50,014 nucleotides of DNA from Candidatus Pacearchaeota archaeon (GCA_016866935.1 VGKS01000001.1:1-50014), one strand, 5' to 3'; positions 3,264 through 35,634 are shown, counted from the first letter of the stretch. A program made the numbers and translations. The notes: a model not told the origin generated them from the letters alone.

Positions 3264-4726
3264 ACTCTTTGGTAGATTATTACTGCAGGCCGCTGCTGAT
3301 TGACATCGAAATAAAATGTCTTTATAGGTATCAGGCCCCCTTGTTCAACAATAGGCTTGAAGTGAATCAAAACCTTTTCATTTGGAGGATAAAACACATT
3401 AACTATCAAGTAATCTGCCTCAAGAGTGAAGTTTGAAAAGTCCGCATCCTGCGGGAATGCTTGCACTCTTCTTTCTGCATAATAGATTGTATATGGCTCT
3501 GTCCACTCTCCTGCAATAATAGAATCTTCTGGAGTATTGTATCTTATCCACTCAAATGCTTCTTTCATCTGCCCATAAGATTCCTTTTTCTCAATCATCA
3601 TCGTATTTGCAAAAGATAGATTTGCAAAAGCAACCCATAGAACAAAGGCAATACATACAATCATAGCAAATTTCTTTTTGTTATTTGCCAAGTAATCGTA
3701 AATAACTGAAACCACTAAAGCAGGCAAGACAAAAAAGACAGATGATAATCCAAGTAAGTATCTATCTTCTGAAGCTTTTATTACAAAAATAAAGAATGAA
3801 AGAACAACTAACAAGAGAATCAAATTAAAGATATGCATCCTGGATTCTTTATGCTTCGAAATGAACCCATAGGACATAACTGTTCTAACTAATATAATTA
3901 TAAGACTTGCATAGAAAAGAAATACTAAAGGCGATTGCAAGATATGATTGATGAATCCAAGAGTATACCATGCAAAATCTTGTTTTTCACCTGCACTAGA
4001 TGCATAAGTACTAGTTGCAGGTAATATAGAACCATAAGCAAATAAATTTATTATGAAGAATAATATTAATGGGATAGCTCCAATAACTCCGCCCATCCAA
4101 AAGTTTTTACTTTTAACTAATTTTACTTTATGAACAAAGATTAAGAAAAGTATAAAGGCAAAGGCAAAAACTGCGTGAGAATACCTAAATAGGACGGCAA
4201 ATGACAGACAAAATACAGAGATGGTCCAGTTCTTAATATTTAGAGATTCATAAGACTTAACAAAAAAGTATATGCTTGCGAGTATCAAGCACATTGAAGG
4301 TATATCCGTCATTGCTCTTGAAGAATAAAATATGTATATCCAAGAAACTGAAGAAAGAGCAGATGCTACCAATCCTACTCTACTACCGTACATCTCCTTT
4401 CCTATTAGGAAAATCAACCAAACTGCGAGAACAGAAGGAATTATGTTTGTGAAAACAATCAGGAAATAATCTGAAAATCCAAACTTTAACATCCAGCTCC
4501 AAATAATGGGAAAAAGCGGCGGACGTATAATTGTTTCATTAATTATGAATGGAGTTTCGTCCCATAAGTGATAAATCATGTTTTTAGCAAGACTTCCATA
4601 TGCCAAAGAGTCCCACCAATGCGCCTGATTTTTTACTATATTAAAAAAATAAAACCTTACGAATAAAGCAATTGCTATAATTCCGTATAAAGCAAATTGC
4701 AACCTATTGATTTTTTTGTCTGCCAT
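3260..4726 (-). CDS. Polytopic membrane glycosyltransferase, GT-C fold (ArnT/PMT-like)
   Basis: 488 aa with more than 10 hydrophobic helices followed by a soluble C-terminal domain. An acidic first-loop motif (HWWDSLAYG) follows TM1, as in ArnT/PMT-type enzymes. Confidence 0.6.
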   Translation of the reverse strand: MADKKINRLQFALYGIIAIALFVRFYFFNIVKNQAHWWDSLAYGSLAKNMIYHLWDETPFIINETIIRPPLFPIIWSWMLKFGFSDYFLIVFTNIIPSVLAVWLIFLIGKEMYGSRVGLVASALSSVSWIYIFYSSRAMTDIPSMCLILASIYFFVKSYESLNIKNWTISVFCLSFAVLFRYSHAVFAFAFILFLIFVHKVKLVKSKNFWMGGVIGAIPLILFFIINLFAYGSILPATSTYASSAGEKQDFAWYTLGFINHILQSPLVFLFYASLIIILVRTVMSYGFISKHKESRMHIFNLILLLVVLSFFIFVIKASEDRYLLGLSSVFFVLPALVVSVIYDYLANNKKKFAMIVCIAFVLWVAFANLSFANTMMIEKKESYGQMKEAFEWIRYNTPEDSIIAGEWTEPYTIYYAERRVQAFPQDADFSNFTLEADYLIVNVFYPPNEKVLIHFKPIVEQGGLIPIKTFYFDVNQQRPAVIIYQRV

Positions 4727-6822: not shown

Positions 6823-8550
6823 ATGTTTGTCTTAGGACTTAATATAGGACATAATTCTACGGCATGTCTGCTAAAAGATGGAAAGATAATTACTTGCGTG
6901 AGCGAGGAGAGATTTTCAAGAATAAAAAATCATGCAGGCATACCTTTCGCAGGAATAGATTATATCTTGAAGTCTAATGGGTTAGAAATTAAAGACTTGG
7001 CTACGATTGTATTGGACGACCATTATCCCATAATAAATGACCCTAAATTTGTGAAACAATTCTTGGAATCTTATATTCGCAAACCTCTTCATAAAAGAAT
7101 TTTATCTAAAATTGGATATAATTATCCAAATTTTTACTATAATTATAATTTAATGAAAAATCCTAGATCTTCAAATAAAAAAAGAAGAAATGAAGTAAGA
7201 AATTACCTTGCAAGAAAACTTAACTATCCAATAGAAAAGATTATTTTGATAGATCATCATTACGCTCACGCGCTTGCGCCTTGCTTCAATCTTAACAAAA
7301 ACCAAAAAACTCTTGTTTTTACTCTGGACGGGGAAGGAAGCGGAACTTGCGCTACTGTAAATATATTTGATGGTAAAAATCTTAAAAGAATAGCAATGAC
7401 AGATAAAAGCGCTTCTTTAGGATACCTTTATGCAATAACTACTATTATTTTAGGAATGAAACCTCTTGAACATGAATTCAAGGTAATGGGGCTGGCTCCA
7501 TATGCAAAGACAGAAAAAGTAAAGGAAGTTTATGAGGAGCTCAGAAAGATAATATGGGTAGACTCCTTAAAATTTAAGTCAAAATTCAATATGCCTTTTG
7601 TAGACAATTATTTGCTTGATAAAATGAAGTTTGTTAGGTTTGACACATTAGCAGGTGCTGTGCAAATGCTTACTGAAGAGCTAACACTGGAATGGATAAG
7701 AAATGCCATTAAGGCCACAGGAATACATAACATTGCTTTGGCTGGAGGGGTATTTATGAACGTTAAAGCAAACCAAAGAATAGCTAATCTAGACGAAGTT
7801 CAGAGCATTTTTGTTATGCCGAGTTGTGGGGATGAATCTAATGCAATAGGTTCTTGCTTTTTTGGATATAGGGAGCTAAATAAGGATAAAAATATTAACT
7901 TTAGAGCCATAGAAGACTTATATCTTGGACCAGAATGCGACAATAAAGATTTAGAGGATTATCTCAAGAAAAATAAACTGAAAAATTATACTGTAAAAAA
8001 AGTAAAAAAAATAAATAAAGAAGTTGCAAAACTTCTTGCAGAAGGGCAAATAGTAGCAAGATGCAGTGGAAGAAGTGAATGGGGTGCTAGATCACTTGGA
8101 AATAGGGCAATACTTGCTAATCCTAGTGACCCTGAAACAATAAGGATTTTGAATGAAACAATAAAAGACAGAGATTTTTGGATGCCATTCACCCCCAGCA
8201 TTATTGAAGATGATGCTCATAAATACATAAAAAACCCAAAGAAGATAAAAGCTCCTTATATGACTCTAACATTTGACTCTACAAAACTTGCACAAGAGCA
8301 TTTATCTGCAGCTATGCACCCATATGATTTTACACTTAGGCCTCAAATAGTATACAAAAACTGGAACAAAGGATATTATGATCTAATAAAAGAGTTCAAA
8401 AAATTAACAAAGATCGGAGGAATATTAAACACTTCATTCAACCTCCATGGAGAACCTAATGTATTAACTATTAATGATGCCATTCACACACTAGATAATT
8501 CGGCACTTAGATATCTGGCAATTGGAGATTACTTAATTAAAAAGAATTAG
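6823..8550 (+). CDS. Carbamoyltransferase (NodU/CmcH family)
   Basis: LGLNIGHNSTACLL..SEERFSRIKN, DHHYAHA, LAGGVFMNVKAN, RSLGNRAILANP and SFNLHGEP motifs are characteristic of NodU/CmcH O-carbamoyltransferases. Confidence 0.85.
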   Translation: MFVLGLNIGHNSTACLLKDGKIITCVSEERFSRIKNHAGIPFAGIDYILKSNGLEIKDLATIVLDDHYPIINDPKFVKQFLESYIRKPLHKRILSKIGYNYPNFYYNYNLMKNPRSSNKKRRNEVRNYLARKLNYPIEKIILIDHHYAHALAPCFNLNKNQKTLVFTLDGEGSGTCATVNIFDGKNLKRIAMTDKSASLGYLYAITTIILGMKPLEHEFKVMGLAPYAKTEKVKEVYEELRKIIWVDSLKFKSKFNMPFVDNYLLDKMKFVRFDTLAGAVQMLTEELTLEWIRNAIKATGIHNIALAGGVFMNVKANQRIANLDEVQSIFVMPSCGDESNAIGSCFFGYRELNKDKNINFRAIEDLYLGPECDNKDLEDYLKKNKLKNYTVKKVKKINKEVAKLLAEGQIVARCSGRSEWGARSLGNRAILANPSDPETIRILNETIKDRDFWMPFTPSIIEDDAHKYIKNPKKIKAPYMTLTFDSTKLAQEHLSAAMHPYDFTLRPQIVYKNWNKGYYDLIKEFKKLTKIGGILNTSFNLHGEPNVLTINDAIHTLDNSALRYLAIGDYLIKKN

Positions 8551-11240
8551 TAGTACAATACATTTTTATCTTGAAGTGGCAAAATAACACAAGACAAATG
8601 CTCTTCGGTTGACTGCCCTATATTTATCTCCCCATTTAAATATTTCTCAATGCTTATATTAAAGTTTAAATTTTGAGGCTGCCCTCTTAGAGTAACTTCG
8701 CTATCTTCAAGAGTCAAGTACATTTTATTAAAAGGTACAAATGTTGCATCATTTATTGTGAGGCCATCTGATTTTATAATAGCATTAACTGAATCCATTC
8801 TAATTTTTAGAGGAGTATTGCAGCTTTCTTCAGGCGTTTGAGGAGCTATATAAAAAGTAGGATTGATTAAATCTATTTTTCTAAAGATTATTCTTTTATT
8901 TCCACTTATCATAGCAGTAATAGAATCTAAATAAGATACATCCAAGTCCGCTCTTTCGGCTTCAAAAACCTTATTTTGTGTATTATTTACAATTAAATTT
9001 TCTATAACTACTTTTCCTGTAAATATATTAAACTTTACATCATCTATGGAAAAGTCAGCGTTAGTTCTTTCCTTTATTATTTTAGAAATATTATTTACGT
9101 CTGTAAATGAATTGACTGCTACATAGAATAGTAAAATAATCAACAATAAAATACAGATTATGGTTATCTTAAAACCGATATTTCTCAGTCTACTCAATAT
9201 TTTATTTATCTTGAATTCAAGTCTAGGCAATCTATTCTTCCTTTGAACAAATAAAAACAAAGACACTCCAATAATTAAAACCAAAGGAGACAAAATTAAA
9301 CCTAAATAAAATTGTTTTGCTACATACTTTAATTCTATCGAATTATCTCCTTCTGGCGCTTCAAATACTATTCTTCCAAATTCATCCGAATAGATTTCTT
9401 TTTTCTCATGATTAACTTTTAGCACATAATTATCTTTATGCAATAGGTTGATAGTTACATTTTTAGGCTCAGAAAATACGGTGTTAAATTTCAGGCCATT
9501 AGAAAGTCTTAAGTATTCTATTTTTATTTCACCTGAAAATACATAACTTTTATATTTGTTTTCAAAGATAATAAAATGTTCATCTGAATAAACCTCATTT
9601 AAGCCAGCCAGTTCTTCATGATAAACAAGGCTATCGCGCGGAACTAATACCCACCTTACCCCATACTCTCCAAGACCTGACAGATTAATAGTTACCTCTG
9701 ATAGGCCATATTTTGACACAGGTATTCTTTCATAAGTTAAAGTATCTTGAAATGGTTCGTAAGCAAAAACAGAGTCTATCCCAAAATAAGTTGGAAAATT
9801 ATGTGTAAGTGGCCCAAAATATTTCATTTCATTAGAAGCATTTGAATATTTCACGTTAGTAGGGTTATAGGTGCTGTTGGTAAACACTCCGATAAGTCTT
9901 CCCTCCTTATTTTGCAAAGATTCGTACTTATCCAGGTTTAGAGGAAGACTTTCCTCAAACCTTGGCCCTGACAGATTAACTGCTATAAATACATGATAAA
10001 CTATAAGAATAAGAAACAATAAAGAAAAGAGAATAAAGATCTTATTTCGATAACTAATATTCAAGTTTTCATATGCTTTGTCAAGAACTATTGCTCCGAA
10101 TAGGGCCATGAATATATTTGTGAAAAGAGTTATTTTCAAAGGATAACTAAAGTTACTTAGGATAGGTAAAAACGCTCCAAAAGTATAGATTATCCCATAG
10201 TAGCCCATGCTTAGCAATATAGCTAGTATTGCAAGGAAAAATAAAGGATGGATTTTCTTTAAAGACCTCTTTCTATATTTGTATAATCCATATAATCCCC
10301 CTAAAAAGAAGAATATTGAAAATAAGCCTCCTGCGTAATATATTGCTATAACATCTGGTCCGGAATAAAACAAAGGATTATTAGACTTAACAAGTGGAAA
10401 AGGAAGAATAGATCCTTTTACTATATCTATAGGAGAACTCGGAGGGCTTATAATATAATTAATTAAATTTAAGTTGCCGCGCGGAGATTCTGAGGCAATA
10501 TGCAATTGTGAAAGAATAAGAGGTAAAGCCACATATACTGTAATCAGCATAGATAATCCGTACCTACTAAGAATAGAAGCATAATTTTTAAATTCATTTT
10601 TATGCATTAATAACACCAGATAGAGAAACTCGAAAATAACTGAATATACAAAATACTGGGCATTTCCGGAATAAAAATAAAGCCCTCTTATCATCCCTGA
10701 ACTAATGAAAATCTTTTTTGAGGAATCTTTTATCAAAGATTCAGCGAAATGAAGAAGAAGCGGAAGAAAAACAAGCGTAGGAATCAAATAAAACCAGCTT
10801 GAGGAATAAATTAAGATATATCCTGAATATACTACAGCAACACTTGCAAGCATTGAAATGAATTTTCTTTTTACTTTGTTATTAAGAAAAATGTAGATAA
10901 CAAGAAAGCCAATTATGAGGTGAATGAAAACAAATATTTCCATAAATAAGAAAACGTTTCCAAAAACATAATTTGAAAAAATATAAGCCAAGATACTTAT
11001 TGGATAGAAGAAAGGGTATGTCCCAACCTCCAACATCGGGGAACCTAACGATTGATGCATATTTAATACCGGAAGATCAAAATTGAACAGTTGGTCAAAA
11101 CCTTCAAGCAAAACAGGAAGAAACTGCTCTATATTGTCTCCTTGAGTAAAGTTATATGGATGCAACGATTCAATATAAAAGAATATTGCTATGACAATTA
11201 ATATCCCTAAAATGGGGTAGAAAATATCTTGTTTTTTCAT
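8547..11240 (-). CDS. Large polytopic membrane protein, YfhO/GT-C-like (tentative)
   Basis: 897 aa. The N-terminal half has many hydrophobic helices (QGDNIEQFLPVLLEGF.. loop after TM1). This is followed by a soluble middle domain, two further TM segments and a C-terminal domain of about 190 aa. The family call rests on layout only. Confidence 0.45.
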   Translation of the reverse strand: MKKQDIFYPILGILIVIAIFFYIESLHPYNFTQGDNIEQFLPVLLEGFDQLFNFDLPVLNMHQSLGSPMLEVGTYPFFYPISILAYIFSNYVFGNVFLFMEIFVFIHLIIGFLVIYIFLNNKVKRKFISMLASVAVVYSGYILIYSSSWFYLIPTLVFLPLLLHFAESLIKDSSKKIFISSGMIRGLYFYSGNAQYFVYSVIFEFLYLVLLMHKNEFKNYASILSRYGLSMLITVYVALPLILSQLHIASESPRGNLNLINYIISPPSSPIDIVKGSILPFPLVKSNNPLFYSGPDVIAIYYAGGLFSIFFFLGGLYGLYKYRKRSLKKIHPLFFLAILAILLSMGYYGIIYTFGAFLPILSNFSYPLKITLFTNIFMALFGAIVLDKAYENLNISYRNKIFILFSLLFLILIVYHVFIAVNLSGPRFEESLPLNLDKYESLQNKEGRLIGVFTNSTYNPTNVKYSNASNEMKYFGPLTHNFPTYFGIDSVFAYEPFQDTLTYERIPVSKYGLSEVTINLSGLGEYGVRWVLVPRDSLVYHEELAGLNEVYSDEHFIIFENKYKSYVFSGEIKIEYLRLSNGLKFNTVFSEPKNVTINLLHKDNYVLKVNHEKKEIYSDEFGRIVFEAPEGDNSIELKYVAKQFYLGLILSPLVLIIGVSLFLFVQRKNRLPRLEFKINKILSRLRNIGFKITIICILLLIILLFYVAVNSFTDVNNISKIIKERTNADFSIDDVKFNIFTGKVVIENLIVNNTQNKVFEAERADLDVSYLDSITAMISGNKRIIFRKIDLINPTFYIAPQTPEESCNTPLKIRMDSVNAIIKSDGLTINDATFVPFNKMYLTLEDSEVTLRGQPQNLNFNISIEKYLNGEINIGQSTEEHLSCVILPLQDKNVLYY

Positions 11241-11284: not shown

Positions 11285-11923
11285 TTAGAGCTTTACCACT
11301 CCTGATTTTTCCCACTGTTCTACATATTGAGCGGCTGTCATTACTGCATCCAGTTTAAATCCAAGAGACTTAAGCCCTTCAATATACTTAGGGATGTCAG
11401 CAGGTCTTCCCCATCTTTCAGGACAAACAAGACAAGTCTTGAATTTAGAAAGGACAGAAATATCTTCTTTGGTTATAGGAAGTTTTGTATTTGTATCAAT
11501 CCAGACCCAGTTAAGCATTGGATTACCATTCTCATCCAACTGAGCACCCACATACTCTATTGGCTCTGCTTCGCTAAATCTTATTGAAACTCTTCTCATT
11601 CCTTCTTTTCTTGTTGCTCTATATATATAAGGGAATTCAGCGTCTTGAAAGAACCAATCCTTGACATTATATTTATGCATTAAATCAATAATCCTTTTTT
11701 CATAACCCATTTCCTTGATGTTAAGCACCATCACTCCAGAATGCCTCCAATGCTTAAGATATTCTTCAAAATCGGTGTAAGTCGCCAGTTTAGAATCCTC
11801 AATAGGATCATGAGTCATCAGTAGCTTATCCCCATACCCTCTTAAGTCAAGCTCGACTCCATGGCTAGGATTGACTGTTTTCAAAGCTTCTATCGTGTTT
11901 ATACGATGCCTTATAATTCCCAT
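11285..11923 (-). CDS. Glycerophosphodiester phosphodiesterase-like (GDPD/PLC-like TIM barrel) protein
   Basis: N-terminal RHRINTIEAL..GVELDLR..LLMTHDP matches the HR..N..E-D-R..HD catalytic pattern of GDPD enzymes. Confidence 0.6.
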   Translation of the reverse strand: MGIIRHRINTIEALKTVNPSHGVELDLRGYGDKLLMTHDPIEDSKLATYTDFEEYLKHWRHSGVMVLNIKEMGYEKRIIDLMHKYNVKDWFFQDAEFPYIYRATRKEGMRRVSIRFSEAEPIEYVGAQLDENGNPMLNWVWIDTNTKLPITKEDISVLSKFKTCLVCPERWGRPADIPKYIEGLKSLGFKLDAVMTAAQYVEQWEKSGVVKL

Positions 11924-12006: not shown

Positions 12007-12729
12007 TTAATTTAGTTTTTTCTTTAACTCGAAAGTAAACTTCATTGTTCTTTTTATGAATTTTATCCTTGCTTTCCATCCTGTATTCCAGGCGCTTTCT
12101 CCAAAAATCCTCTTTCCAAAGTAAACAGGGAATCTTTTTACCTCATATCCGTATTTCTTAGCAGTATAATATACGAATAAGTCAAACGCGAAATCTTTTG
12201 GAGGATTGGATAGATGCTTCATCAAAGATTTTGGGAAAATATTTGGCTGAGCGTTTATATCATACATAAAACTTCCCAGAACTACTGTTTCAAATATAGA
12301 CATACCTAAAGTATTGACTAATTTATCAGCTAAAGGCCTTCCATAACGTTTTCCCTTCAAAAATATTTTTTTATTTTTGGAAGACTTTATTATTTCTAGA
12401 GCCCTAAAAACATCTTCTGGAGGAGTCTGCATATCTGCATGGGTCCAGCCTACAAATTCTCCTTTAGCAGAAGCAAGGCCTTTCCACAGAGCTGCTCCGT
12501 AGCCAGGTTCAGGTTGGAACACTGACTTTGCAAAAGAATACTTTTTTTTCTTAAGAAGACTCTTGAGAACCTCTTTTGTTTCATCTTTTGAATTGTTATC
12601 TACGAGAATTAATTCAATATTTGGATTATTAAACTTAACAAAGGCATTACTAAATTTCTCTAAAACTATAGAAATATTCTTTGCTTCATTATAACAAGGC
12701 AAAACTATTGAGAGATATGGTTTTTTCAT
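12007..12729 (-). CDS. Glycosyltransferase family 2 (polyprenol-phosphate sugar synthase-like)
   Basis: YLSIVLPCYNEAKNI and LILVDNNSKDET motifs. The 240-aa soluble DPM1/GtrB-like size fits. There is a 1-nt start/stop overlap with the upstream gene. Confidence 0.8.
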   Translation of the reverse strand: MKKPYLSIVLPCYNEAKNISIVLEKFSNAFVKFNNPNIELILVDNNSKDETKEVLKSLLKKKKYSFAKSVFQPEPGYGAALWKGLASAKGEFVGWTHADMQTPPEDVFRALEIIKSSKNKKIFLKGKRYGRPLADKLVNTLGMSIFETVVLGSFMYDINAQPNIFPKSLMKHLSNPPKDFAFDLFVYYTAKKYGYEVKRFPVYFGKRIFGESAWNTGWKARIKFIKRTMKFTFELKKKLN

Positions 12730-13550
12730 TATTTTTTACCGAAATAAGAATGCCAGAAAGCATATTCTTTCTTTTCTTTAGCTTCTGGGTTTTTTTCTGG
12801 CAGAGCAATTGCTTTTTCCCAGTAAAGGTATTCTTCATAATCTGCAGGCACTCCCCATCCAATATATTTTTCTACCGGGAATGAAACCACTTTGTAGCCC
12901 ATTTCTATTGCCACTCCAATCATAGAATCTATATAATATTCTCCCTTTACTGTTACTCCCCTACGCATCAATTCTTCTGCAATCTTTAGAAATTCTTTTC
13001 CGCTTTTGAAACTGAATGAACCCGTAATAGCATAATCATCGTAAGGATTATTTGAAATTGGAACCTTGACTGAAACTCCTTTTATATTATGATCTTTGTC
13101 GATCTTAAGCCAACCCCAGGCCTGAGGGTTTCTAGTCAGGTTAGGCTGTTTAGTGAAGCTCCAGGAAATCATGTCAGGACTTTTAGATTTGATTAAATTT
13201 TGATACTTATGAAGATCATAAACCATTCCAAGGTCACAAGCTCCTACAAAAATAGGCTCATCATAGTCATAGAATTTTCTTGCAACAAGACACGAATTTA
13301 ATTGGCCTATGGGATTTGGGTCAACTATTATTTCCACATCTTTAGATACAGACTTAAGAGCGCTAATTACTTCTTTTTCCTCTAAATGTTCCTGCCTCAC
13401 TACAAAAACCCACTTGTCTGCCGGAGGCATTGATTTGACAGCCTGAATAATCATTGGCGCTCCAGAAACAGGGATAAGTGGCTTTGAAAGTTTGTAACCA
13501 GCATCGGTAAAACGTTTTCCACTTCCGGCCATTAATACCACGTTTATCAT
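12729..13550 (-). CDS. Sugar-phosphate (or alditol/ketose-phosphate) nucleotidyltransferase, GT-A fold
   Basis: N-terminal VVLMAGSGKRF..KPLIPVSG signature of the NTP_transferase family. The substrate cannot be read from the sequence. Confidence 0.7.
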   Translation of the reverse strand: MINVVLMAGSGKRFTDAGYKLSKPLIPVSGAPMIIQAVKSMPPADKWVFVVRQEHLEEKEVISALKSVSKDVEIIVDPNPIGQLNSCLVARKFYDYDEPIFVGACDLGMVYDLHKYQNLIKSKSPDMISWSFTKQPNLTRNPQAWGWLKIDKDHNIKGVSVKVPISNNPYDDYAITGSFSFKSGKEFLKIAEELMRRGVTVKGEYYIDSMIGVAIEMGYKVVSFPVEKYIGWGVPADYEEYLYWEKAIALPEKNPEAKEKKEYAFWHSYFGKK

Positions 13551-14248
13551 TTTTTACCCTGACCGTAATAGGCCCCTTTACCATGCTTACGATTGTAGTG
13601 TCTTTCAAGAAGTGGTTTTGGGATGCTACATGGCATGCCCCCAAGCATATTTTTCATGCTAATTGCCATTTTAGATACTTCTTCAAGAGCAATAGCATTC
13701 TCCACTGCATCATCAACACTTTTTCCCCATACAAAAGGACCGTGATATGCAACCAGGCAAGCTGGAACCTCGAGGTGATTGACTGACCCAAACGCTTCCG
13801 CTATCGCTTTGCCCGTGTTTAATTCGTAATCTAAATTAATTTCAGCGGTGGAAAGGTCTCTTGAAACAGGCACTGTTCCATTAAAATGATCTGCATGGGT
13901 TGTCCCATAGCAATGTAGAGGCATTTTAGCTTGACAGAAAGAAGTAGCGAAAGGAGAATGAGTATGGACTATTCCCTTTATGCCTTTCAAATTCTGGTAG
14001 AGATAAAGATGGGTAGGGGTATCTGAACTTGGCTTATGTTTTCCTTCTATTACAGAACCATCTTCCACATTCACTACAACCATATCATCAGGAGTTAAAG
14101 AATCATAATGGACTCCGCTTGGCTTAATTGCAAAGTATTTTCCATCATCACTTAACCCGCTTACATTTCCAAATGAAAGCTTAACTAAACCTTCCTTAAC
14201 AATTCTTTTGTTAGCTTCTGCAACTCTTGCCTTTAGATCTTCAAACAT
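13547..14248 (-). CDS. araD: L-ribulose-5-phosphate 4-epimerase (class II aldolase fold)
   Basis: Near-collinear with enterobacterial AraD/SgbE/UlaF as I recall them: FEDLK..V.EAN, GNVS, IKPSGV, KPSSDTPTH, GIVHTHS, GTTHADHF.GT.P, HGPFVWGK, NAIALEEV and RKHGKGAYYGQ. Confidence 0.85.
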   Translation of the reverse strand: MFEDLKARVAEANKRIVKEGLVKLSFGNVSGLSDDGKYFAIKPSGVHYDSLTPDDMVVVNVEDGSVIEGKHKPSSDTPTHLYLYQNLKGIKGIVHTHSPFATSFCQAKMPLHCYGTTHADHFNGTVPVSRDLSTAEINLDYELNTGKAIAEAFGSVNHLEVPACLVAYHGPFVWGKSVDDAVENAIALEEVSKMAISMKNMLGGMPCSIPKPLLERHYNRKHGKGAYYGQGKK

Positions 14249-14864
14249 TTTCGAAAGTGAACTTTTTAATTATCTGAGGTTTATTTTCCTCCTTATATAA
14301 AACTATAGAATCAAATACAAATTGACCAGCTAGATTTTGACCAAGTATAGTTTTATGAACAAGGTCAAAAACCTTTTGATCTATGGAAGCCAAACTTAAA
14401 TGAGGTATCCAGTTTTCCCCTACAAAAGGAAATCCATATTTGATAATATTATCTTTCTCTATTTGCCCTGATTTCTTAAAGACATCTGACTCGGAAGAGA
14501 AAAACTTCATTTTATCAGAGATATTAAGGGAATCTAAAAATTCAACCTGCAAGTTCTTAAGATTTTTTGTTGCAAATGATGAAAAATTGTAAGTTATAGT
14601 ATTTCCACCTGTCTGGATATCATTATAGAAGACATGCATTCCTTTTATCTCTGAATTTATCTTTTTTGTTTTTGAAACAAAAGAGCTTATTTTTTCTAAA
14701 ATAATCTTTTCACCATAATCATCCAAATTTAGAAGTACAAGCGTGGTATGGGGGGAATGAGACAGAAACTTTTGGTCTCCAACTAGATTAAAAACAGTTT
14801 CTTTATGATCCATTATTTTTTCATAAACTTTTCTTTCAGGTTCAAGTGCTATGAAATATTTCAT
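14241..14864 (-). CDS. 2H phosphoesterase superfamily protein (LigT/cyclic phosphodiesterase-like)
   Basis: Two H-x-T/S-x motifs at the expected spacing: SPHTTLVL and IPHLSLAS. Confidence 0.6.
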   Translation of the reverse strand: MKYFIALEPERKVYEKIMDHKETVFNLVGDQKFLSHSPHTTLVLLNLDDYGEKIILEKISSFVSKTKKINSEIKGMHVFYNDIQTGGNTITYNFSSFATKNLKNLQVEFLDSLNISDKMKFFSSESDVFKKSGQIEKDNIIKYGFPFVGENWIPHLSLASIDQKVFDLVHKTILGQNLAGQFVFDSIVLYKEENKPQIIKKFTFENV

Positions 14865-17362
14865 TATAATTTAGAGAACATCCTTTCAATTTGATCCCTA
14901 TTTAACTCCAGAAAAAACCTTCCATCTTTAGAAATTACTCCTTTTATCTCATCCAAGTGGTCTATTTTAATTTTATGCCAGTCCTTAACTGGAATATTTG
15001 AATAAGTTCCAACAAGAGACCTAAGGAAAACATTATGAGTACAAACAAGGATTTTTTTGTGGGAGTATCTTCTAAGGTCTTTAACGAATGAAAACATCCT
15101 TTTTTGAACATCTGCATTATTTTCACCTGAAGGAAATGCGGTATCTTCCCCTAGATCCCATGAATCTACTATTCCAGGGTAGTTTTTTTGGAGAAAAGAA
15201 AAGTCCTTACCATCTACTAAACCGTAGTCTACCTCTATAAGGCGTTTATCTTTTTTAGCTTTTTTTGCTTTGGAATGCTCCAAGGTTTCTAGACACCTTT
15301 TTAATGGTGATGAAAATACCAGATCAAAATCGCTAAAATCAAGTTTCTTCTTTAAGTTCTTTATTCCAATGTCAGTTTTTTGACCGAGGAATAATCCTTC
15401 TTTATTCATTTCTGTAGGTGCATGCCTTATGAAAGAGATTTGTTTTCCTGAATAAAAGTAATCTTTAAACTGGCTCTCAAAATCCTTCAAAAATTTCTCT
15501 AAAGAAGATTCTATGCTTTTCTCAAAACCAAAGTTTCTCTTGAGCTTATCAGAATACATTTTTTCGATTAAAGATCTGTGCCAGATTGCGTTTTTCTTAA
15601 ATATTTTGAAATAATTGTCAAGCATTTTATCGAAATCAGGCTTACTGTTTCTTCTATTATATAATTTCAGGAAGTTTAAGATCAAAAACTTGCATATATG
15701 GTAAGAGAATTCTATTTTATGCCGAGAATCCATCTCTTTGAAATTCTTTTCTTCTACCACATTACCTTTTTTATCAAATGCGTATGACCTATAAGAGATA
15801 TTACCACTCTTTAAGTCTTTTAGGTAATCTGAAACGCTTCTTCTTGAATTAAAGAAAAAACTAGGCTGCAATAACTTAACTGAATAGATTCTTTCGATAG
15901 GTTTCTTTGAATATTTCCTGGATCTTTGCCAATCAAAACATGTAAATGGGCTATCCAAACAATGAAGTCTATGCGATTCTATATCGTAAAACATAAGGTG
16001 GAAAACTATACACCTATCATTGAATTTTAATGGTCCAAGAGTGTTATTTATGAGAAATTTTATACCATATTTAGATTCAAGACATTTTGATAAATCTTTA
16101 AAGTCATTTAAAACCTTTAGAAAGTTATCTTTTGAAAGTTTATCAAATATGATTACTGTATCTATATCACTAGCTCCTTCTAAATCATAAGTTTCTGCAA
16201 ATGTTCCTACTAAGTTTCCAGATACCAAAAACTTATTAGACCTAACAATCTTGTTTATTTCATCCACTATATCCTTCCTAATTGTTTCAGATAAGGATGA
16301 ATACCTTGCGCTAGTCTTTAATTCCATAAAAGATTTAATAGGATCATCTGAATTTATCAAGCTAGAGGCTGAAACTATATACCTAGCATTTATCTTTTGG
16401 ATGTTTGTTGGCTTTACCCCTCCATCAAAAATAACTTTTATTCCATTCAGATTAAGAGAGTTTACTTTTTCTAATAGACTCAATGAATCTATGGTGAAAT
16501 TTTGACCTGATTTACCCACTTCTTCGATACCCATTACTTGAATGTAGTCTATTTTTTTGAGATATTTCTTGAGTTTATCTAAATCTGATTTTATTGTAAT
16601 GACAATACCGACTTTTTTATTGAAACTTTTGCATAAATCTATTACTTCATCCAAAACTTCATTAACTTCTAAATGAACCGTTATTACATCAACATACTTA
16701 TGAAGTTTCTTAATCCAGATAGAGGGTGTCTTTGACATAATATGCAACTGCTTTTCAAGAAACCAAACACTGCTTATCTTTTTTATTAGAGGTAAATCTA
16801 TCTCTTCAGCCTCTTCACTCATTGATTTATCTACAAAGTCTATATGGATAAAATCAGAATAATATTTTATTTTTGAATAAACATCTTCTATTGACTCGTC
16901 TTTCTTAAGGTAAACTGCGACACCTACTTTCTTCACGAAATCTGTGAAAGTTATTTTTCTATGCGCAAAATAGCTCAGTAGAAATACTACTCCTGCAGTG
17001 AAAAGCCTGGAAGGGCCATAATTTGAGTTTATTCCTCCAAAAAGAACAGACATTATTAGTAGATTAAGAAGAAAAGCTACGACTGCTATTGATAAGAAAA
17101 TACTAAAAGTTTTTGCATTCCTTCCTTTTGGAACTCTAAAATTAAGCCTGGAATTGAGAAGGAAACTTATGAAAACTCCTGAAATGAAGCCAAGAGGGAT
17201 GCTAATAAGTGAAGGCGATTCTAGAATATTAAGATAATGAACAATTAGGATTTCTAAACCAACCGAGAAAAGGCCTATTATTATGTAATTAATAAGATAT
17301 CTGAACCTATATAGTAAAAACTTAGTTTCCCTTCTAAGACTCTGAGATTTTAAGATTGCCAT
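14864..17362 (-). CDS. Four-domain fusion: GtrA-like membrane domain, ribulose-phosphate-3-epimerase-like TIM barrel, Pol-beta-type nucleotidyltransferase, and histidine phosphatase
   Basis: aa 14-139: 4 TM helices ending in AHRKITF (GtrA-like). aa 146-348: IHIDFVD, LHIMS, ITVHLE, IQVMGIEEVGKSGQNF and IFDGGV (RPE pattern). aa 365-480: GNLVGTF..GASDIDTVIIFD (minimal nucleotidyltransferase). aa 641-825: FIRHAPTEMN, FSSPLKRC, PSGENNADV and LVCTHNVFLRSL (histidine phosphatase/PGAM family). Confidence 0.65.
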   Translation of the reverse strand: MAILKSQSLRRETKFLLYRFRYLINYIIIGLFSVGLEILIVHYLNILESPSLISIPLGFISGVFISFLLNSRLNFRVPKGRNAKTFSIFLSIAVVAFLLNLLIMSVLFGGINSNYGPSRLFTAGVVFLLSYFAHRKITFTDFVKKVGVAVYLKKDESIEDVYSKIKYYSDFIHIDFVDKSMSEEAEEIDLPLIKKISSVWFLEKQLHIMSKTPSIWIKKLHKYVDVITVHLEVNEVLDEVIDLCKSFNKKVGIVITIKSDLDKLKKYLKKIDYIQVMGIEEVGKSGQNFTIDSLSLLEKVNSLNLNGIKVIFDGGVKPTNIQKINARYIVSASSLINSDDPIKSFMELKTSARYSSLSETIRKDIVDEINKIVRSNKFLVSGNLVGTFAETYDLEGASDIDTVIIFDKLSKDNFLKVLNDFKDLSKCLESKYGIKFLINNTLGPLKFNDRCIVFHLMFYDIESHRLHCLDSPFTCFDWQRSRKYSKKPIERIYSVKLLQPSFFFNSRRSVSDYLKDLKSGNISYRSYAFDKKGNVVEEKNFKEMDSRHKIEFSYHICKFLILNFLKLYNRRNSKPDFDKMLDNYFKIFKKNAIWHRSLIEKMYSDKLKRNFGFEKSIESSLEKFLKDFESQFKDYFYSGKQISFIRHAPTEMNKEGLFLGQKTDIGIKNLKKKLDFSDFDLVFSSPLKRCLETLEHSKAKKAKKDKRLIEVDYGLVDGKDFSFLQKNYPGIVDSWDLGEDTAFPSGENNADVQKRMFSFVKDLRRYSHKKILVCTHNVFLRSLVGTYSNIPVKDWHKIKIDHLDEIKGVISKDGRFFLELNRDQIERMFSKL

Positions 17363-18034
17363 TTATATTATCAAAAATATTGCTCCGCCTATGCCATATC
17401 TTCCAAGTTCTTCTACTACGAGCTTATTTCTTTTACAGAACTCTTTAAATGCTTTTCTCACTCCTCTTTCTACCCCTCCTAAATAATTGAAATAATCGTC
17501 TAAAATCAGTATAGTTCCCTTTTGGACCACTTTATCTATAAACTTGAAAGCTTGGCTCGCAGAAGAATGCAAATCGCAATCCATCATAATCATTGCGGCT
17601 TTCTTAATCCCGTATTTTGAAGGGCCTTCTTTAAGAGTGTGATTGAAAAAGCCAGGGACCAGTTTTACTTCAGGAAAATTCCTAAACCTTTTCTTGATTT
17701 GGTGAAAATCTGTTGAAAAGTCAAAGTTTGTATAAAATGGGTGCTCATCTCCTTTTTCAGGGCTCATTCCTTTGAAAGAGTCAAAACCGAAAAACCTCAT
17801 ATTTTTTCCACCCCCTATTTTTCTCCAGTAGGTAGCTGCTCCCTTTATGCTGGTTCCTTCATACACTCCAAATTCCAAGTAATCTCCTTCCACCCCTTCT
17901 ATCTTTTTGTAAAATAGGAACTTCTTTAGAGATTCATGCTTCTCATTATTATGGATTATTTCAGGACCAACCAAATTACTTATTTTGATATAGATGTCTT
18001 GCGCAAAAAGAAATAACTTATGTAAAGATTTCAT
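17363..18034 (-). CDS. TylF/MycF-like SAM-dependent O-methyltransferase
   Basis: GDYLEFGVYEGTS and MMDCDLHSS..GTILILDDY motifs of the macrocin-O-methyltransferase family. Confidence 0.7.
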   Translation of the reverse strand: MKSLHKLFLFAQDIYIKISNLVGPEIIHNNEKHESLKKFLFYKKIEGVEGDYLEFGVYEGTSIKGAATYWRKIGGGKNMRFFGFDSFKGMSPEKGDEHPFYTNFDFSTDFHQIKKRFRNFPEVKLVPGFFNHTLKEGPSKYGIKKAAMIMMDCDLHSSASQAFKFIDKVVQKGTILILDDYFNYLGGVERGVRKAFKEFCKRNKLVVEELGRYGIGGAIFLII

Positions 18035-27725: not shown

Positions 27726-29522
27726 CTAGGTTTTAATCATTTGATATAATATAACAAATAAAGATAATATGGAGAAGATTATTGCTAAGATAATGATTGT
27801 AAAAGAAGCATTATCAAGAAGACTGGAAAAAGGGTCAACAGTTTTATAATTAAAGGTATAATCATTCATATTTTTATACAAATAAGGTACGAAGTAAAAG
27901 CTTTGGGACTGTTTAATTTGTTCTAGAATGTTTTGAGGTATCCTAAGGTCCGCTGAATAAACCTTATAGTATTCTTGTGGAATTCCTGTAAATAACTCAT
28001 TTCCATTGAAACTAGGAGATTCTATTATTGAAACAACATCCGCTGTTTCTGCAATTGAATTAATAAAAGACTCTGAAGATGCGTTTAAATTAGGATTATT
28101 TGCCACCCATCCCCAGCCACAATCCTCTACAACACATTCTATAAAATAGACCTTCATTGGTGGAACTGCAGACATATTTTGTGCGAAAACTTGTTGAAAT
28201 AAGGGAACTGATTGCTCAAAATTCAAGTAAGTTTTATCTGTAGCCAACCACATTGAACGGGCAGTATAAATTCTAGAGTCAAATATAATTAAACTTGAGT
28301 CGCTTACTTTATAATTAATTAATGATTTAAGTTCTGCATTGGGTCCCTTGGAAAAATAGTGAGATGGGGTTCCGTTAGAGATACCTAAAAAATATATTGT
28401 AATAAGTAAGAATCCAAATAAGGCAATTATTTTTAGATTTTTAGTCTTTAAGTTGTTTAATGAATTACTTAGACCAAGGCCTGCTGGTATTGCTAGTAGA
28501 ATATACATAAATGCAAAGTGTTTTTGCAAAGGTGCTCCTGCACTTTGAAGGATAAATGGAATTAATAAGAATATAAGAACAAAAGAGAAAACCTTTCTAT
28601 TATTTTTGTATAAACTGAATAGCCCTATAATAGCAAATATTACTAAAACCGGGTCTGTAACTAGTGGAAGTTTATAGTTGTTGTAGTTTTTTAAGTTAAA
28701 TAAGTTATCAAAAAATGAGTTTTCTTGTCCTCCAAGACCACCATATAACTCTTGGGTTGCATTAAGATGAACTAGCCTACTAAAATAAACATCTACAATT
28801 CCTTTCTGATTATATAGAATGTAATTGAAGGATAAAAATGGAAAAGCAAATAGAATTAGTATTGCTAAGAATAAAAGGCAGTTTTTGACTGTTAAGAATT
28901 TATGTCCTTTAGAAAGACCACTATATAAGGCATATACTCCAAATGAAATTATAAAGAACGGGGCATTATATTTTGTTAATAATGCTAAACCAAAGAAAAT
29001 TGAAAATACTAAAAGAAGTCGATATGATGGTTTTTCCATAAACAACATTCCAAAATATATTCCTGAAAAAATAAAGAAAAATACAACCAAACTTTGTTCT
29101 GTAAATGTCATTCTTATCAAAAAACTAGAAAATGTTACAAACAACGCTACAAAAAAAGACTGTTTTTTATTTTTTAATAATTGATTAGAAATTAAGTAAG
29201 CCAGAGGAATAAGTAGAGTTCCTGCAATCATAGGCCAAAATCTTGCTGCGAATGTAGAATAACCAAATACATTGTAAGCGAGATCCGTCAAATAAAAGAA
29301 TAATGGAGGATTTGAATGTGTTGATATTATTTTTGCCCCAATTATTCCAGCGCTCTGGGATGCATATACCATATCATCTGCTAAAACATCTAAATTTATA
29401 GCTCCAATAAACCTCAAAATTAGCCCTATAAAAGTTAGGTAAAGGGTATATCTCGCGTATTTCGCTTCTTCTGAAAGAAACAAAAGTTTAATTCTTTTCT
29501 TTAAAGCATGAATTTTGCCCAT
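27726..29522 (-). CDS. Polytopic membrane glycosyltransferase, GT-C fold (ArnT/PMT_2-like)
   Basis: 598 aa with about 12 N-terminal TM helices, a soluble domain of about 200 aa and a terminal TM. An acidic first loop (LDVLADDMVYASQ) follows TM1. Confidence 0.6.
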   Translation of the reverse strand: MGKIHALKKRIKLLFLSEEAKYARYTLYLTFIGLILRFIGAINLDVLADDMVYASQSAGIIGAKIISTHSNPPLFFYLTDLAYNVFGYSTFAARFWPMIAGTLLIPLAYLISNQLLKNKKQSFFVALFVTFSSFLIRMTFTEQSLVVFFFIFSGIYFGMLFMEKPSYRLLLVFSIFFGLALLTKYNAPFFIISFGVYALYSGLSKGHKFLTVKNCLLFLAILILFAFPFLSFNYILYNQKGIVDVYFSRLVHLNATQELYGGLGGQENSFFDNLFNLKNYNNYKLPLVTDPVLVIFAIIGLFSLYKNNRKVFSFVLIFLLIPFILQSAGAPLQKHFAFMYILLAIPAGLGLSNSLNNLKTKNLKIIALFGFLLITIYFLGISNGTPSHYFSKGPNAELKSLINYKVSDSSLIIFDSRIYTARSMWLATDKTYLNFEQSVPLFQQVFAQNMSAVPPMKVYFIECVVEDCGWGWVANNPNLNASSESFINSIAETADVVSIIESPSFNGNELFTGIPQEYYKVYSADLRIPQNILEQIKQSQSFYFVPYLYKNMNDYTFNYKTVDPFSSLLDNASFTIIILAIIFSILSLFVILYQMIKT

Positions 29523-35581: not shown

Positions 35582-35605
35582 TTTATATTCTTTCATCTGG
35601 GAGTG

Positions 35606-35612: not shown

Positions 35613-35634
35613 GCTTATGTTTACTAAAATAATT

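What the first reader, a model, noticed from the sequence alone, without database searches (positions are those of the whole stretch)
14864..17362. 832-aa four-domain fusion: GtrA membrane module, RPE-like barrel, Pol-beta-type nucleotidyltransferase and histidine phosphatase
There are four recognisable modules in one uninterrupted ORF. A GtrA-like 4-TM domain spans aa 14-139 (nt about 16946-17323). An RPE-like TIM barrel spans aa 146-348 and retains the His/Asp positions (IHIDFVD, LHIM, FDGG). A minimal nucleotidyltransferase spans aa 365-480 with G-x-n-SDID, followed by an unassigned helical region of about 155 aa. A histidine phosphatase spans aa 641-825 with the RHA..SSPL..H pattern. GtrA-family proteins are normally stand-alone small membrane proteins implicated in handling of lipid-linked sugars. 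Tethering three soluble enzymes to one suggests a membrane-localised metabolon. I do not recognise this architecture from any characterised protein.
Basis: partly seen in the sequence, partly recalled or inferred. Interest (0 to 1): 0.65.

Follow-up and report, generated by a model that had tools for sequence, protein, structure and literature searches.

The report
Membrane-anchored four-enzyme fusion for surface sugars
A tiny lake-water archaeon has welded two neighbouring genes of a rare, unstudied sugar-making gene cassette into one membrane-anchored four-part enzyme, which probably helps turn a five-carbon sugar phosphate into a lipid-linked sugar for the cell surface.

Summary
The 832-aa ORF (14864-17362, minus strand) is real. 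Contigs from four separate lake-water samples span all three domain junctions without differences. More than 30 independent DPANN-archaeal clusters show the same architecture.

Pfam supports three modules: GtrA, RPE-like and histidine phosphatase. The fourth misses Pfam's threshold here but passes in relatives. It folds confidently (pLDDT 93.5) as a two-domain Pol-beta nucleotidyltransferase, closest to ANT(9)/AadA. Catalytic residues of all three enzyme modules are conserved.

The protein fuses two adjacent genes of a conserved cassette:
- GtrA-RPE
- AraD-like epimerase
- 2H phosphoesterase
- NT-histidine phosphatase
- RmlA-like nucleotidyltransferase
- DPMS-like GT2 without a membrane domain
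- an unannotated GDPD-fold protein

In Planctomycetes these genes are separate; elsewhere they are fused in other combinations. A sister cassette in CPR bacteria replaces the epimerase, NT, phosphatase and 2H parts with a phosphoribulokinase-like domain and a RuBP-5-phosphatase-like HAD.

Best reading: a membrane-tethered supply line converts pentulose phosphate into a polyprenyl-phosphate-linked sugar for GT-C transferases. The exact chemistry is inferred. No characterised homologue or paper was found.

The parts
14864..17362 (-). 832-aa four-module fusion protein (P0001)
   Evidence: Single ORF. The start ATG directly follows the TAA of the upstream TylF gene. Its TAA stop overlaps the ATG of the downstream 2H gene as TAATG.
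16946..17323 (-). GtrA/DPMS-type transmembrane module (aa 14-139)
   Evidence: PF04138, 52.6 bits, full profile 2-117. Hydrophobic segments at aa 22-47, 50-71 and 83-113. Conserved polar residues E37, N70, N74, N100, R119, H134 and R135.
16313..16927 (-). RPE-like (ribulose-phosphate 3-epimerase family) TIM barrel (aa 146-350)
   Evidence: PF00834, 72.8 bits. Far below the NCBIfam Rpe equivalog cut-off: 66.9 bits against 212.6. Metal and catalytic residues H173, D175, H207 and D313 are invariant, and the phosphate-loop residues G283, S285, G286, G314, G315 and S333 are conserved.
15443..16312 (-). Pol-beta-type nucleotidyltransferase core (about aa 365-480) plus C-terminal helical domain (about aa 481-640), an AadA/ANT(9)-like two-domain fold
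   Evidence: AF2 pLDDT 93.5. Foldseek top hits are 6xz0 ANT(9) and AadA entries. It is the most conserved part of the family: S381, G386, D399, D401, K446, H455, H464, H467, F473, C475, W478, R507, R508 and N563. The family has only 256 clusters at 50% identity among 1.84 billion proteins.
14888..15442 (-). Histidine phosphatase (branch 1) domain (aa 641-825)
   Evidence: PF00300, 95.3 bits. Best NCBIfam and PDB relatives are CobC alpha-ribazole phosphatase and the PspA phosphoserine phosphatase. Catalytic R646, H647, R689, E710 and H776 are invariant.
14241..14864 (-). 2H phosphoesterase (cyclic phosphodiesterase superfamily), cassette member
   Evidence: Weak PF13563 hit here and a clear one in the L003 orthologue (1.8e-16). 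Both HxT/S motifs are conserved (H39, H155). It is fused to NT-HisPhos in other lineages.
13547..14248 (-). AraD-like L-ribulose-5-phosphate 4-epimerase (class II aldolase family)
   Evidence: PF00596, 1e-48. NCBIfam NF006047 AraD subfamily, 298.8 bits against a cut-off of 257.
12729..13550 (-). RmlA/GlmU-like sugar-phosphate nucleotidyltransferase
   Evidence: PF00483 and PF12804. Weak PDB matches to RmlA. Orthologues are in every cassette form, at 35-77% identity. It is fused to NT-HisPhos in P0243 and P0244.
12007..12729 (-). GT2 glycosyltransferase, DPMS/ArnC-like catalytic domain without a membrane segment
   Evidence: PF00535. The best solved relative is P. furiosus dolichol-phosphate mannose synthase 5mlz (E 5e-11, aa 6-233), followed by ArnC. 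No hydrophobic segment.
11285..11923 (-). GDPD-fold phosphodiesterase-like protein, a family without a Pfam or NCBIfam model
   Evidence: No HMM hit. At least 1297 homologues. AF2 pLDDT 96.4. All of the top 15 Foldseek hits are glycerophosphodiester phosphodiesterases (E 4e-5, TMq 0.75). Invariant residues include H6, E24, D26, R28, H38 and E118; R7 is nearly invariant.
17363..18034 (-). TylF-type O-methyltransferase, abutting the fusion gene
   Evidence: PF05711, 4e-14. An orthologue (37% identity) sits in the CPR sister cassettes L009 and L011.
8547..11240 (-). 897-aa polytopic membrane protein next to the cassette; candidate transferase, unassigned
   Evidence: About 12 or more hydrophobic segments. 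Only a weak DUF748 hit. No BLAST similarity to the polytopic proteins beside other cassettes.
3260..4726 (-). GT-C glycosyltransferase (PMT_2), a user of polyprenyl-phosphate sugars
   Evidence: PF13231, 5e-18. Polytopic.
27726..29522 (-). Second GT-C glycosyltransferase (PMT_2/PMT)
   Evidence: PF13231, 2.6e-15, and PF02366.

Best explanation
The 832-aa protein is a genuine gene fusion in DPANN archaea of the Woesearchaeota/Nanoarchaeota type. It joins two neighbouring genes of a conserved, uncharacterised glycan-precursor cassette. One gene encodes a GtrA membrane module plus an RPE-like epimerase. The other encodes an AadA-like nucleotidyltransferase plus a histidine phosphatase.

Proposed function. 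Together with the adjacent 2H phosphoesterase, AraD-like 4-epimerase, RmlA-like nucleotidyltransferase, DPMS-like GT2 and GDPD-fold protein, the fusion converts a pentulose 5-phosphate into an activated sugar. That sugar is loaded onto polyprenyl (dolichyl) phosphate at the cytoplasmic face of the membrane. It is then flipped and used by GT-C transferases to decorate surface glycans.

Proposed steps, all inferred:
1. The RPE-like and AraD-like enzymes set the configuration (Ru5P, Xu5P, L-Ru5P).
2. The NT domain nucleotidylates the sugar.
3. The phosphatase domain removes the 5-phosphate so the pentulose can cyclise.
4. The GDPD-fold and 2H enzymes process the resulting phosphodiester or cyclic phosphate.
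5. The RmlA-like enzyme makes the NDP-sugar.
6. The GT2, docked on a GtrA-type membrane module, makes the lipid-linked sugar.
7. The TylF-type enzyme may O-methylate it.

What is shown: the anatomy, the conservation of catalytic residues, the cassette and its alternative fusions.

What is inferred: the substrates, the order of steps and the membrane metabolon.
For: The fusion is real and conserved, and catalytic residues of all three enzyme modules are invariant.

The cassette is conserved across domains of life. It occurs in archaeal loci L001-L004, L012 and L013 and in Planctomycetes L006 and L008, where GtrA-RPE (356 aa) and NT-HisPhos (516 aa) are separate genes.

Independent fusions link the same parts:
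- GtrA-GtrA-RPE-NT-HP
- GtrA-RPE-NT plus HP-2H
- 2H-NT-HP
- NT-HP-2H
- NT-HP-NTP_transf_3
- RPE-NT-HP

Support for the sugar-to-lipid logic:
- The AraD assignment is above the NCBIfam subfamily cut-off.
- The GT2 is closest to P. furiosus DPMS and to ArnC and lacks a membrane domain. PF04138 is by definition the GtrA/DPMS membrane domain.
- GT-C genes lie in the window and directly beside the cassette in L013, as PMT_2 and YfhO.
- The whole 1-30 kb region is a glycan island.

Support from the CPR sister cassette. It keeps the GDPD-like protein (54% identity), GT2 (52%), NTP_transferase (38%), GtrA and TylF. It replaces RPE, AraD, NT-HP and 2H with three things: a phosphoribulokinase-like domain; a HAD whose best NCBIfam match is the haloarchaeal RuBP 5-phosphatase; and a second NTP_transferase. 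This points to a pentulose phosphate that loses its 5-phosphate. RuBP 5-phosphatase is known to yield cyclised ribulose-1-phosphate (PMC9700705).
Against: - No enzyme of the cassette has been assayed, so every substrate is inferred.
- The window's NT domain fails Pfam's threshold, and its match to AadA/ANT(9) is at fold level only (E about 0.015, 10% identity).
- The RPE-like domain scores far below the housekeeping Rpe equivalog cut-offs, so its substrate may not be Ru5P.
- The AraD-like gene was not found in some cassette loci (L002, L004/L012).
- No GT-C is conserved at sequence level beside the cassettes.
- The RuBP-phosphatase and PRK matches in the sister cassette are below their curated cut-offs.
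- The need for four phosphoryl-handling enzymes has no precedent in known NDP-sugar routes.
Confidence: 0.6

Rival explanations
1. The cassette does not make a glycosyl donor. Instead it installs a phosphodiester-linked pentulose, pentitol or pentose phosphate on a glycan or lipid, in teichoic-acid or fukutin/LicD style, or it makes a soluble phosphodiester or glycoside. The NT domain would act as a phosphotransferase. The GDPD-like, 2H and histidine phosphatase enzymes would trim or recycle phosphodiesters. The GT2 with the phosphatase would act like glucosyl-3-phosphoglycerate synthase and phosphatase.
For: Three phosphoester hydrolase types, plus a GDPD fold, are typical of phosphodiester chemistry. 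The RmlA-like enzyme also hits the MobA/IspD-type NTP_transf_3 family, whose members make CDP-alcohols. The GT2 has weaker hits to GpgS, and the phosphatase domain resembles GpgP-type enzymes.
Against: - The profile of the NT family shows no relation to a LicD protein: hhalign probability 0.2%.
- The GT2's best match over its whole length is DPMS, then ArnC.
- One or two GtrA modules are always present.
- GT-C genes flank the cassette in L013.
Confidence: 0.22
2. The NT, 2H and histidine phosphatase trio is an RNA or nucleotide end-processing or signalling unit of the 2'-5' or cyclic-phosphate type. It would have landed next to glycan genes by chance, and the fusion would have no pathway meaning.
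For: 2H enzymes and Pol-beta nucleotidyltransferases are best known from RNA repair and nucleotide signalling. Lower-ranked fold hits include CD-NTases and MNT antitoxins.
Against: The trio is found only inside this cassette. It is fused in turn to GtrA, RPE and the sugar-phosphate NTP_transferase, in three phyla. The family is tiny. No RNA-binding or ligase partner was seen.
Confidence: 0.04
3. The long ORF is an assembly chimera or hides a frameshift, and the true genes are separate.
For: One low-depth unitig in run X5 carries a 1-nt deletion in an A5 run at 16427. Some relatives do split the protein at the helical/HisPhos boundary.
Against: Contigs from four independent samples span every junction identically. 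More than 30 independent clusters share the full architecture. Where the protein is split, HisPhos is fused to 2H instead, which is a different real arrangement and not a broken gene.
Confidence: 0.01

Closest known systems
Three-component extracytoplasmic glycosylation systems: GtrA/GtrB/GtrC of Shigella and Salmonella phages, CsbB/GtcA/YfhO, and ArnC/ArnE-F/ArnT
   Same: All combine a GT2 polyprenyl-phosphate sugar synthase, a small GtrA-type membrane protein and a GT-C transferase. The cassette has a DPMS/ArnC-like GT2 and one or two GtrA modules. PMT_2 or YfhO GT-C genes lie in the window or beside the cassette.
   Different: Here the GtrA module is covalently joined to three soluble enzymes, and the GT2 has no membrane segment. 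The cassette carries its own unprecedented precursor-supply enzymes: RPE-like, AraD-like, AadA-like NT, 2H, GDPD-fold and histidine phosphatase. No dedicated GT-C is conserved.
Pyrococcus furiosus dolichol-phosphate mannose synthase (PDB 5mlz)
   Same: It is the best solved relative of the cassette GT2 (E 5e-11 over the whole catalytic domain). Its membrane domain belongs to the same Pfam family as the fusion's N-terminal module (PF04138, GtrA/DPMS TM).
   Different: In DPMS the GT2 and the membrane domain are one chain. Here they are on separate proteins, and the membrane domain is fused to other enzymes. The sugar is unlikely to be mannose.
Pentofuranose side-chain pathways: polyprenyl-phosphoribose synthase with a fused phosphatase, a flippase and GT136 (C. 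youngae O1/O2), and mycobacterial DPPRS/Rv3807c/DprE1-E2/Rv3789 (PMC11127046)
   Same: These are lipid-linked five-carbon sugar donors made at the membrane. They include a 5-phosphate removal step, auxiliary epimerases and a phosphatase fused to a membrane enzyme.
   Different: Those routes start from PRPP with a UbiA-type transferase and epimerise the lipid-linked sugar with SDR or FAD enzymes. This cassette has no UbiA-type enzyme. It uses sugar-phosphate epimerases, two nucleotidyltransferases and a Leloir-type GT2.
ANT(9) and ANT(3'')(9) AadA aminoglycoside O-nucleotidyltransferases
   Same: They share the two-domain fold of a Pol-beta NT core plus a helical domain, with a G[ST]...DxD motif. 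They nucleotidylate hydroxyls of sugar-like small molecules.
   Different: Identity is about 10%, Foldseek E is only about 0.015, and there is no sequence-level match. The window's domain has its own invariant His/Cys/Trp/Arg set and a glycan-biosynthesis context, not a resistance context.
Haloarchaeal non-carboxylating pentose bisphosphate pathway: RuBP 5-phosphatase plus ribulose-1-phosphate aldolase (PMC9700705)
   Same: The CPR sister cassette combines a HAD whose best match is RuBP 5-phosphatase with a class II aldolase-family enzyme, plus a phosphoribulokinase-like domain. In the window's cassette the histidine phosphatase and the AraD-like enzyme occupy the corresponding places.
   Different: The haloarchaeal route is catabolic and has no nucleotidyltransferase, GT2 or GtrA. 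The matches are below the curated cut-offs.

Membership tests
GtrA/DPMS transmembrane domain (PF04138) | HMM match above Pfam's gathering score over the full model | tested here: met
   52.6 bits against 26.1, profile positions 2-117 of 117.
GtrA/DPMS transmembrane domain (PF04138) | Four membrane helices with both ends cytoplasmic | tested here: inconclusive
   A strict hydropathy scan gives three segments (aa 22-47, 50-71, 83-113). The fourth (about aa 115-139) is weaker. Topology was not testable.
GtrA/DPMS transmembrane domain (PF04138) | Flipping or binding of a polyprenyl-phosphate sugar | not testable with these tools
   Biochemical property.
Ribulose-phosphate 3-epimerase family (PF00834) | HMM match above the gathering score | tested here: met
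   72.8 bits against 21.1.
Ribulose-phosphate 3-epimerase family (PF00834) | His/Asp/His/Asp metal and acid-base set, and phosphate-binding loops | tested here: met
   H173, D175, H207 and D313 are invariant in 42/42. G283, S285, G286, G314, G315 and S333 are conserved.
Housekeeping Rpe (TIGR01163 equivalog) | Score above the equivalog cut-off | tested here: not met
   66.9 bits against 212.6, and NF004076 92.9 against 165. It is a divergent family member, not the housekeeping orthologue.
Pol-beta-type nucleotidyltransferase (PF01909 NTP_transf_2) | HMM match above the gathering score | tested here: not met
   The window's copy scores 10.6 bits against 21. Orthologous domains pass: 22.1, 28.5, 30.4 and 30.6 bits.
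Pol-beta-type nucleotidyltransferase (PF01909 NTP_transf_2) | hG[GS]...DxD motif and the alpha-beta NT fold | tested here: met
   G386-T387 (Ser in 57 of 63 sequences), with D399 and D401 each conserved in 62/63. The confident model's top fold hits are all NT-fold proteins.
ANT(9)/AadA aminoglycoside nucleotidyltransferases | Sequence-level homology and aminoglycoside-binding residues | tested here: not met
   No PDB sequence hit to the mid region. Fold match only, at 10% identity. It has the same fold type but is not a member.
Histidine phosphatase superfamily branch 1 (PF00300) | HMM match above the gathering score, with the RH(G/A)...R...E...H catalytic set | tested here: met
   95.3 bits against 21.7. 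R646, H647, R689, E710 and H776 are invariant in 54/54.
CobC alpha-ribazole phosphatase (TIGR03162) | Score above the equivalog cut-off | tested here: not met
   87.1 bits against 162.9.
LicD/fukutin-type phosphotransferases | Profile-level homology to a LicD protein | tested here: not met
   hhalign probability 0.2% against the LicD of L010. This is a weak test because the template was a single sequence.
Gtr-type three-component glycosylation system | GT2 polyprenyl-phosphate sugar synthase | tested here: met
   Best solved relatives are DPMS (E 5e-11) and ArnC. This is by similarity only.
Gtr-type three-component glycosylation system | Dedicated GT-C transferase linked to the cassette | tested here: inconclusive
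   There are two PMT_2 genes in the window but 7-10 kb away. PMT_2 and YfhO are adjacent in L013. Polytopic neighbours elsewhere share no detectable similarity.

The most novel reading that the evidence does not exclude
The cassette is the unknown route to a lipid-linked pentulofuranose donor of the xylulose or ribulose type. No donor pathway for such sugars is known (PMC7685785).

Because a hemiketal C2-OH cannot be phosphorylated directly, the pathway would move phosphate onto the anomeric carbon indirectly:
1. The AadA-like NT domain nucleotidylates the C1-OH, acting as a 'kinase surrogate'. In CPR bacteria a phosphoribulokinase plus a second NTP_transferase would do this job.
2. The fused histidine phosphatase removes the 5-phosphate so the ring closes.
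3. The GDPD-fold enzyme forms a 1,2-cyclic phosphate.
4. The 2H enzyme opens it to the 2-phosphate.
5. The RmlA-like enzyme and the split DPMS-like synthase then make the NDP-linked and the dolichyl-phosphate-linked pentulofuranose.
Probability: 0.12. Interest if true: 0.85.

Novelty: new variant of a known kind. Interest (0 to 1): 0.62.

Why it matters
DPANN archaea and CPR bacteria live attached to other cells, so their surface glycans are central to that lifestyle, yet these glycans are almost unknown.

This cassette is shared, in two forms, by DPANN, CPR and Planctomycetes. It contains two enzyme families with no usable annotation:
- a small AadA-like nucleotidyltransferase family;
- a GDPD-fold family with at least 1297 members and no Pfam or NCBIfam model.

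The repeated fusions give a ready-made map of which enzymes act together. If the product is a pentulose-type or otherwise unusual five-carbon sugar on a lipid carrier, this would reveal a new way of making glycosyl donors and would add tools for glycoengineering. Bremerella cremea, a cultured Planctomycete, carries the unfused cassette, so the pathway can be tested experimentally.

Tried and rejected
- **Sequence search of the mid region against the PDB** found only the RPE and phosphatase domains. Fold search was needed.
- **Pfam and NCBIfam searches of the 212-aa neighbour** gave nothing. A PDB profile search gave only noise. Structure prediction and Foldseek identified the GDPD fold.
- **A conserved GT-C beside the cassettes** was looked for. 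BLASTP and tblastn of the window's 897-aa and PMT_2 proteins against the polytopic neighbours in L006, L008, L009, L010 and L013 found no similarity.
- **A LicD/fukutin relationship for the NT domain** was tested and not supported.
- **Literature searches** for the fusion, the cassette and pentulofuranose biosynthesis found no paper describing it. The archaeal fusion survey PMC11237513 mentions other Rpe and histidine-phosphatase fusions, not this one.
- **Chimera or frameshift** was rejected from the read and contig evidence.
- **An RNA-repair reading of 2H plus NT** was rejected on context.

Full report
**Observation**

The minus-strand ORF 14864-17362 is uninterrupted and encodes 832 aa. 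Pfam places three domains above their gathering scores:
- GtrA/DPMS TM, aa 26-139, 52.6 bits.
- Ribul_P_3_epim, aa 164-335, 72.8 bits.
- His_Phos_1, aa 643-804, 95.3 bits.

The nucleotidyltransferase call is only E = 0.76 in this copy. The orthologous domain passes the threshold in several family members.

An AlphaFold2 model of aa 350-640, built on 75 homologues, is very confident (pLDDT 93.5, pTM 0.90). Its best PDB fold matches are the two-domain aminoglycoside nucleotidyltransferases ANT(9) and AadA (E about 0.015, probability 0.99, TMq 0.46). Other Pol-beta-fold proteins follow.

In an alignment of 63 homologues this unit is the most conserved part of the protein. Conserved positions include S381, G386, D399, D401, K446, H455, H464, H467, F473, C475, W478, R507, R508 and N563.

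The catalytic sets of the other two enzymes are invariant:
- RPE-like: H173, D175, H207, D313.
- Histidine phosphatase: R646, H647, R689, E710, H776.

**Artefact check**

The sequence occurs in at least 14 lake-water metagenome runs. A 26.5-kb contig in one run, and overlapping unitigs in three other samples, cover 14600-17600 and all three domain junctions with no differences. The only exception is a 1-nt deletion in an A5 run at 16427, in one low-depth unitig.

At least 26 clusters of 827-844 aa at 46-54% identity have the same architecture. Four of them lie in Woesearchaeota or Nanoarchaeota MAGs. The window itself is archaeal: it carries an S13-S4-S11-RpoD-L18e-L13 operon and a DUF655 protein.

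**Context**

The gene sits in a tightly packed minus-strand operon. Its start follows the stop of a TylF-type methyltransferase directly (TAAATG). Its stop overlaps the next start (TAATG).

Downstream genes, in order:
- A 2H phosphoesterase with both HxT/S motifs.
- An AraD-like L-ribulose-5-phosphate 4-epimerase: 298.8 bits against the subfamily cut-off of 257.
- An RmlA/GlmU-like nucleotidyltransferase.
- A 240-aa GT2 with no membrane segment. Its best solved relative is the catalytic domain of P. furiosus dolichol-phosphate mannose synthase, followed by ArnC.
- A 212-aa protein with no Pfam or NCBIfam hit.
- An 897-aa polytopic membrane protein.

The 212-aa protein has at least 1297 homologues in DPANN, CPR and Planctomycetes. 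It folds confidently (pLDDT 96.4). It matches glycerophosphodiester phosphodiesterases in all of its top 15 fold hits (E 4e-5, TMq 0.75). Its invariant residues include the pattern H6 / E24-x-D26 / H38, with R7 nearly invariant.

The surrounding 30 kb is a glycan island. It carries two PMT_2 GT-C transferases, a Wzx-type flippase, several GT2 and GT4 genes, methyltransferases, a carbamoyltransferase and nucleotide-sugar enzymes.

**The cassette elsewhere**

The same set of genes recurs in archaeal loci L001-L004, L012 and L013. It also recurs in Planctomycetes: Bremerella cremea L006 and a further MAG, L008.

In Bremerella, GtrA-RPE (356 aa) and NT-HisPhos (516 aa) are separate genes. They are 33-34% identical to the two halves of the window's protein. 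The 832-aa protein is therefore a fusion of two cassette genes.

Other lineages fuse the parts differently:
- GtrA-GtrA-RPE-NT-HisPhos, about 930-1003 aa.
- GtrA-RPE-NT (638 aa) followed by HisPhos-2H (416 aa).
- 2H-NT-HisPhos.
- NT-HisPhos-2H.
- NT-HisPhos-NTP_transf_3.
- RPE-NT-HisPhos.

The NT-helical family is small, with 256 clusters at 50% identity among 1.84 billion proteins. Every architecture I examined belongs to this cassette. Such repeated, independent fusions are the classical signature of enzymes that act in one pathway.

**A sister cassette**

CPR bacteria (L009, L010, L011) and another archaeon keep the GDPD-like protein (54% identity), the GT2 (52%), the RmlA-like enzyme (38%), a GtrA and often the TylF methyltransferase (37%). 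They lack RPE, AraD, NT-HisPhos and 2H.

In their place stand:
- A second NTP_transferase paralogue.
- A different class II aldolase-family protein.
- A HAD phosphatase whose best NCBIfam match is the haloarchaeal ribulose-1,5-bisphosphate 5-phosphatase (171 bits, below the cut-off of 330).
- In two of three loci, a phosphoribulokinase-like domain (188 bits, cut-off 236). It is fused to a membrane domain in one locus and to the aldolase-like protein in the other.

The haloarchaeal phosphatase is known to convert RuBP to ribulose-1-phosphate, which cyclises (PMC9700705). This independent line also points to a pentulose phosphate that loses its 5-phosphate as the pathway's key intermediate. It suggests that the histidine phosphatase domain of the fusion plays the HAD's role.

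**Mechanism**

Shown:
- Four modules in one chain, all with intact catalytic residues.
- A conserved operon and its alternative fusions.
- A DPMS-like GT2 that lacks its own membrane domain, next to proteins carrying the GtrA/DPMS membrane domain.
- GT-C genes nearby, and adjacent in L013.

Inferred, in order:
1. The RPE-like and AraD-like enzymes interconvert D-Ru5P, D-Xu5P and L-Ru5P.
2. The AadA-like NT transfers a nucleotidyl group to the sugar.
3. The histidine phosphatase removes the 5-phosphate.
4. The GDPD-fold and 2H enzymes handle a phosphodiester or cyclic-phosphate intermediate. From general knowledge, 2H enzymes open cyclic phosphates, and some GDPD-fold enzymes form them.
5. The RmlA-like enzyme makes an NDP-sugar.
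6. The GT2, docked on a GtrA-type membrane module, loads the sugar onto dolichyl phosphate. It is then flipped and transferred by a GT-C enzyme.
7. The sugar may be O-methylated by the TylF-type enzyme.

I give the general statement about 0.6 and the detailed order much less.

The most novel reading is that the indirect phosphoryl chemistry exists to place phosphate on the anomeric C2 of a pentulofuranose, a sugar class whose donor biosynthesis is unknown (PMC7685785). I give it about 0.12.

**Comparison with what is known**

The overall logic resembles two known kinds of system:
- The GtrA/GtrB/GtrC, CsbB/GtcA/YfhO and ArnC/ArnT three-component systems.
- The lipid-linked pentofuranose pathways (PMC11127046).

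Those use PRPP and a UbiA-type enzyme or ordinary NDP-hexoses. None has this precursor module or a GtrA fused to soluble enzymes.

The individual domains are divergent members of their superfamilies. They fall below the equivalog cut-offs for Rpe and CobC. The NT is AadA-like in fold only.

I found no paper describing the protein or the cassette. I treated it as a lead and re-derived the evidence here.

**Verdict**

The fusion is real and conserved, and it is informative as a Rosetta stone for an uncharacterised glycan-precursor pathway. It is a new variant of a known kind of system, lipid-linked extracytoplasmic glycosylation, with a precursor-supply chemistry that may prove new.

Noticed in passing
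window 11285-11923 (-): A 212-aa protein with no Pfam or NCBIfam model has at least 1297 homologues in DPANN, CPR and Planctomycetes. It has a confident GDPD (glycerophosphodiester phosphodiesterase) fold with an H6 / E24-x-D26 / H38 pattern. This is an unannotated family that deserves a model of its own.
   Followed up: yes
L009 5217-9010; L011 5163-8997; L010 7247-8999: A sister cassette in CPR bacteria has a HAD phosphatase whose best match is haloarchaeal RuBP 5-phosphatase. It also has a phosphoribulokinase-like domain, fused to a membrane domain in a 709-aa protein (L009) or to a class II aldolase-like protein in a 1059-aa protein (L011). These sit next to the GDPD-like protein, two NTP_transferases, GtrA, TylF and GT2.
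   Followed up: partly
window 8547-11240 (-): An 897-aa polytopic membrane protein with about 12 or more hydrophobic segments lies directly downstream of the cassette. It has only a weak DUF748 hit. It may be an unrecognised GT-C-type transferase.
   Followed up: partly
window 24006-26120 (+): A 704-aa fusion of a sugar-phosphate nucleotidyltransferase, a CBS domain and a GHMP kinase: kinase and pyrophosphorylase in one chain, within the same glycan island.
   Followed up: no
window 16427: One low-depth unitig of run X5 lacks one A of an A5 run inside the RPE-like domain. The other contig of X5 covering the site and the contigs of the other three runs laid agree with the window. It is probably a sequencing error or a rare variant.
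   Followed up: partly
window 6823-8550 (+): A NodU/CmcH-type carbamoyltransferase (575 aa) sits among the glycosyltransferases, suggesting carbamoylated sugars in this archaeon's glycans.
   Followed up: no
window 35510-36737 and 47589-48425: Three tRNA genes (Gly-TCC, Arg-CCT, Leu-CAA) lie next to a 5S rRNA gene. A tyrosine recombinase (Phage_integrase, 278 aa) lies just after the archaeal r-protein/RpoD operon.
   Followed up: no
L012 11749-13248 (-): In the split-form archaeal cassette, a B12-binding radical SAM gene is inserted between the GT2 and the GDPD-like gene. This hints at further modification, possibly C-methylation, of the product in that lineage.
   Followed up: no
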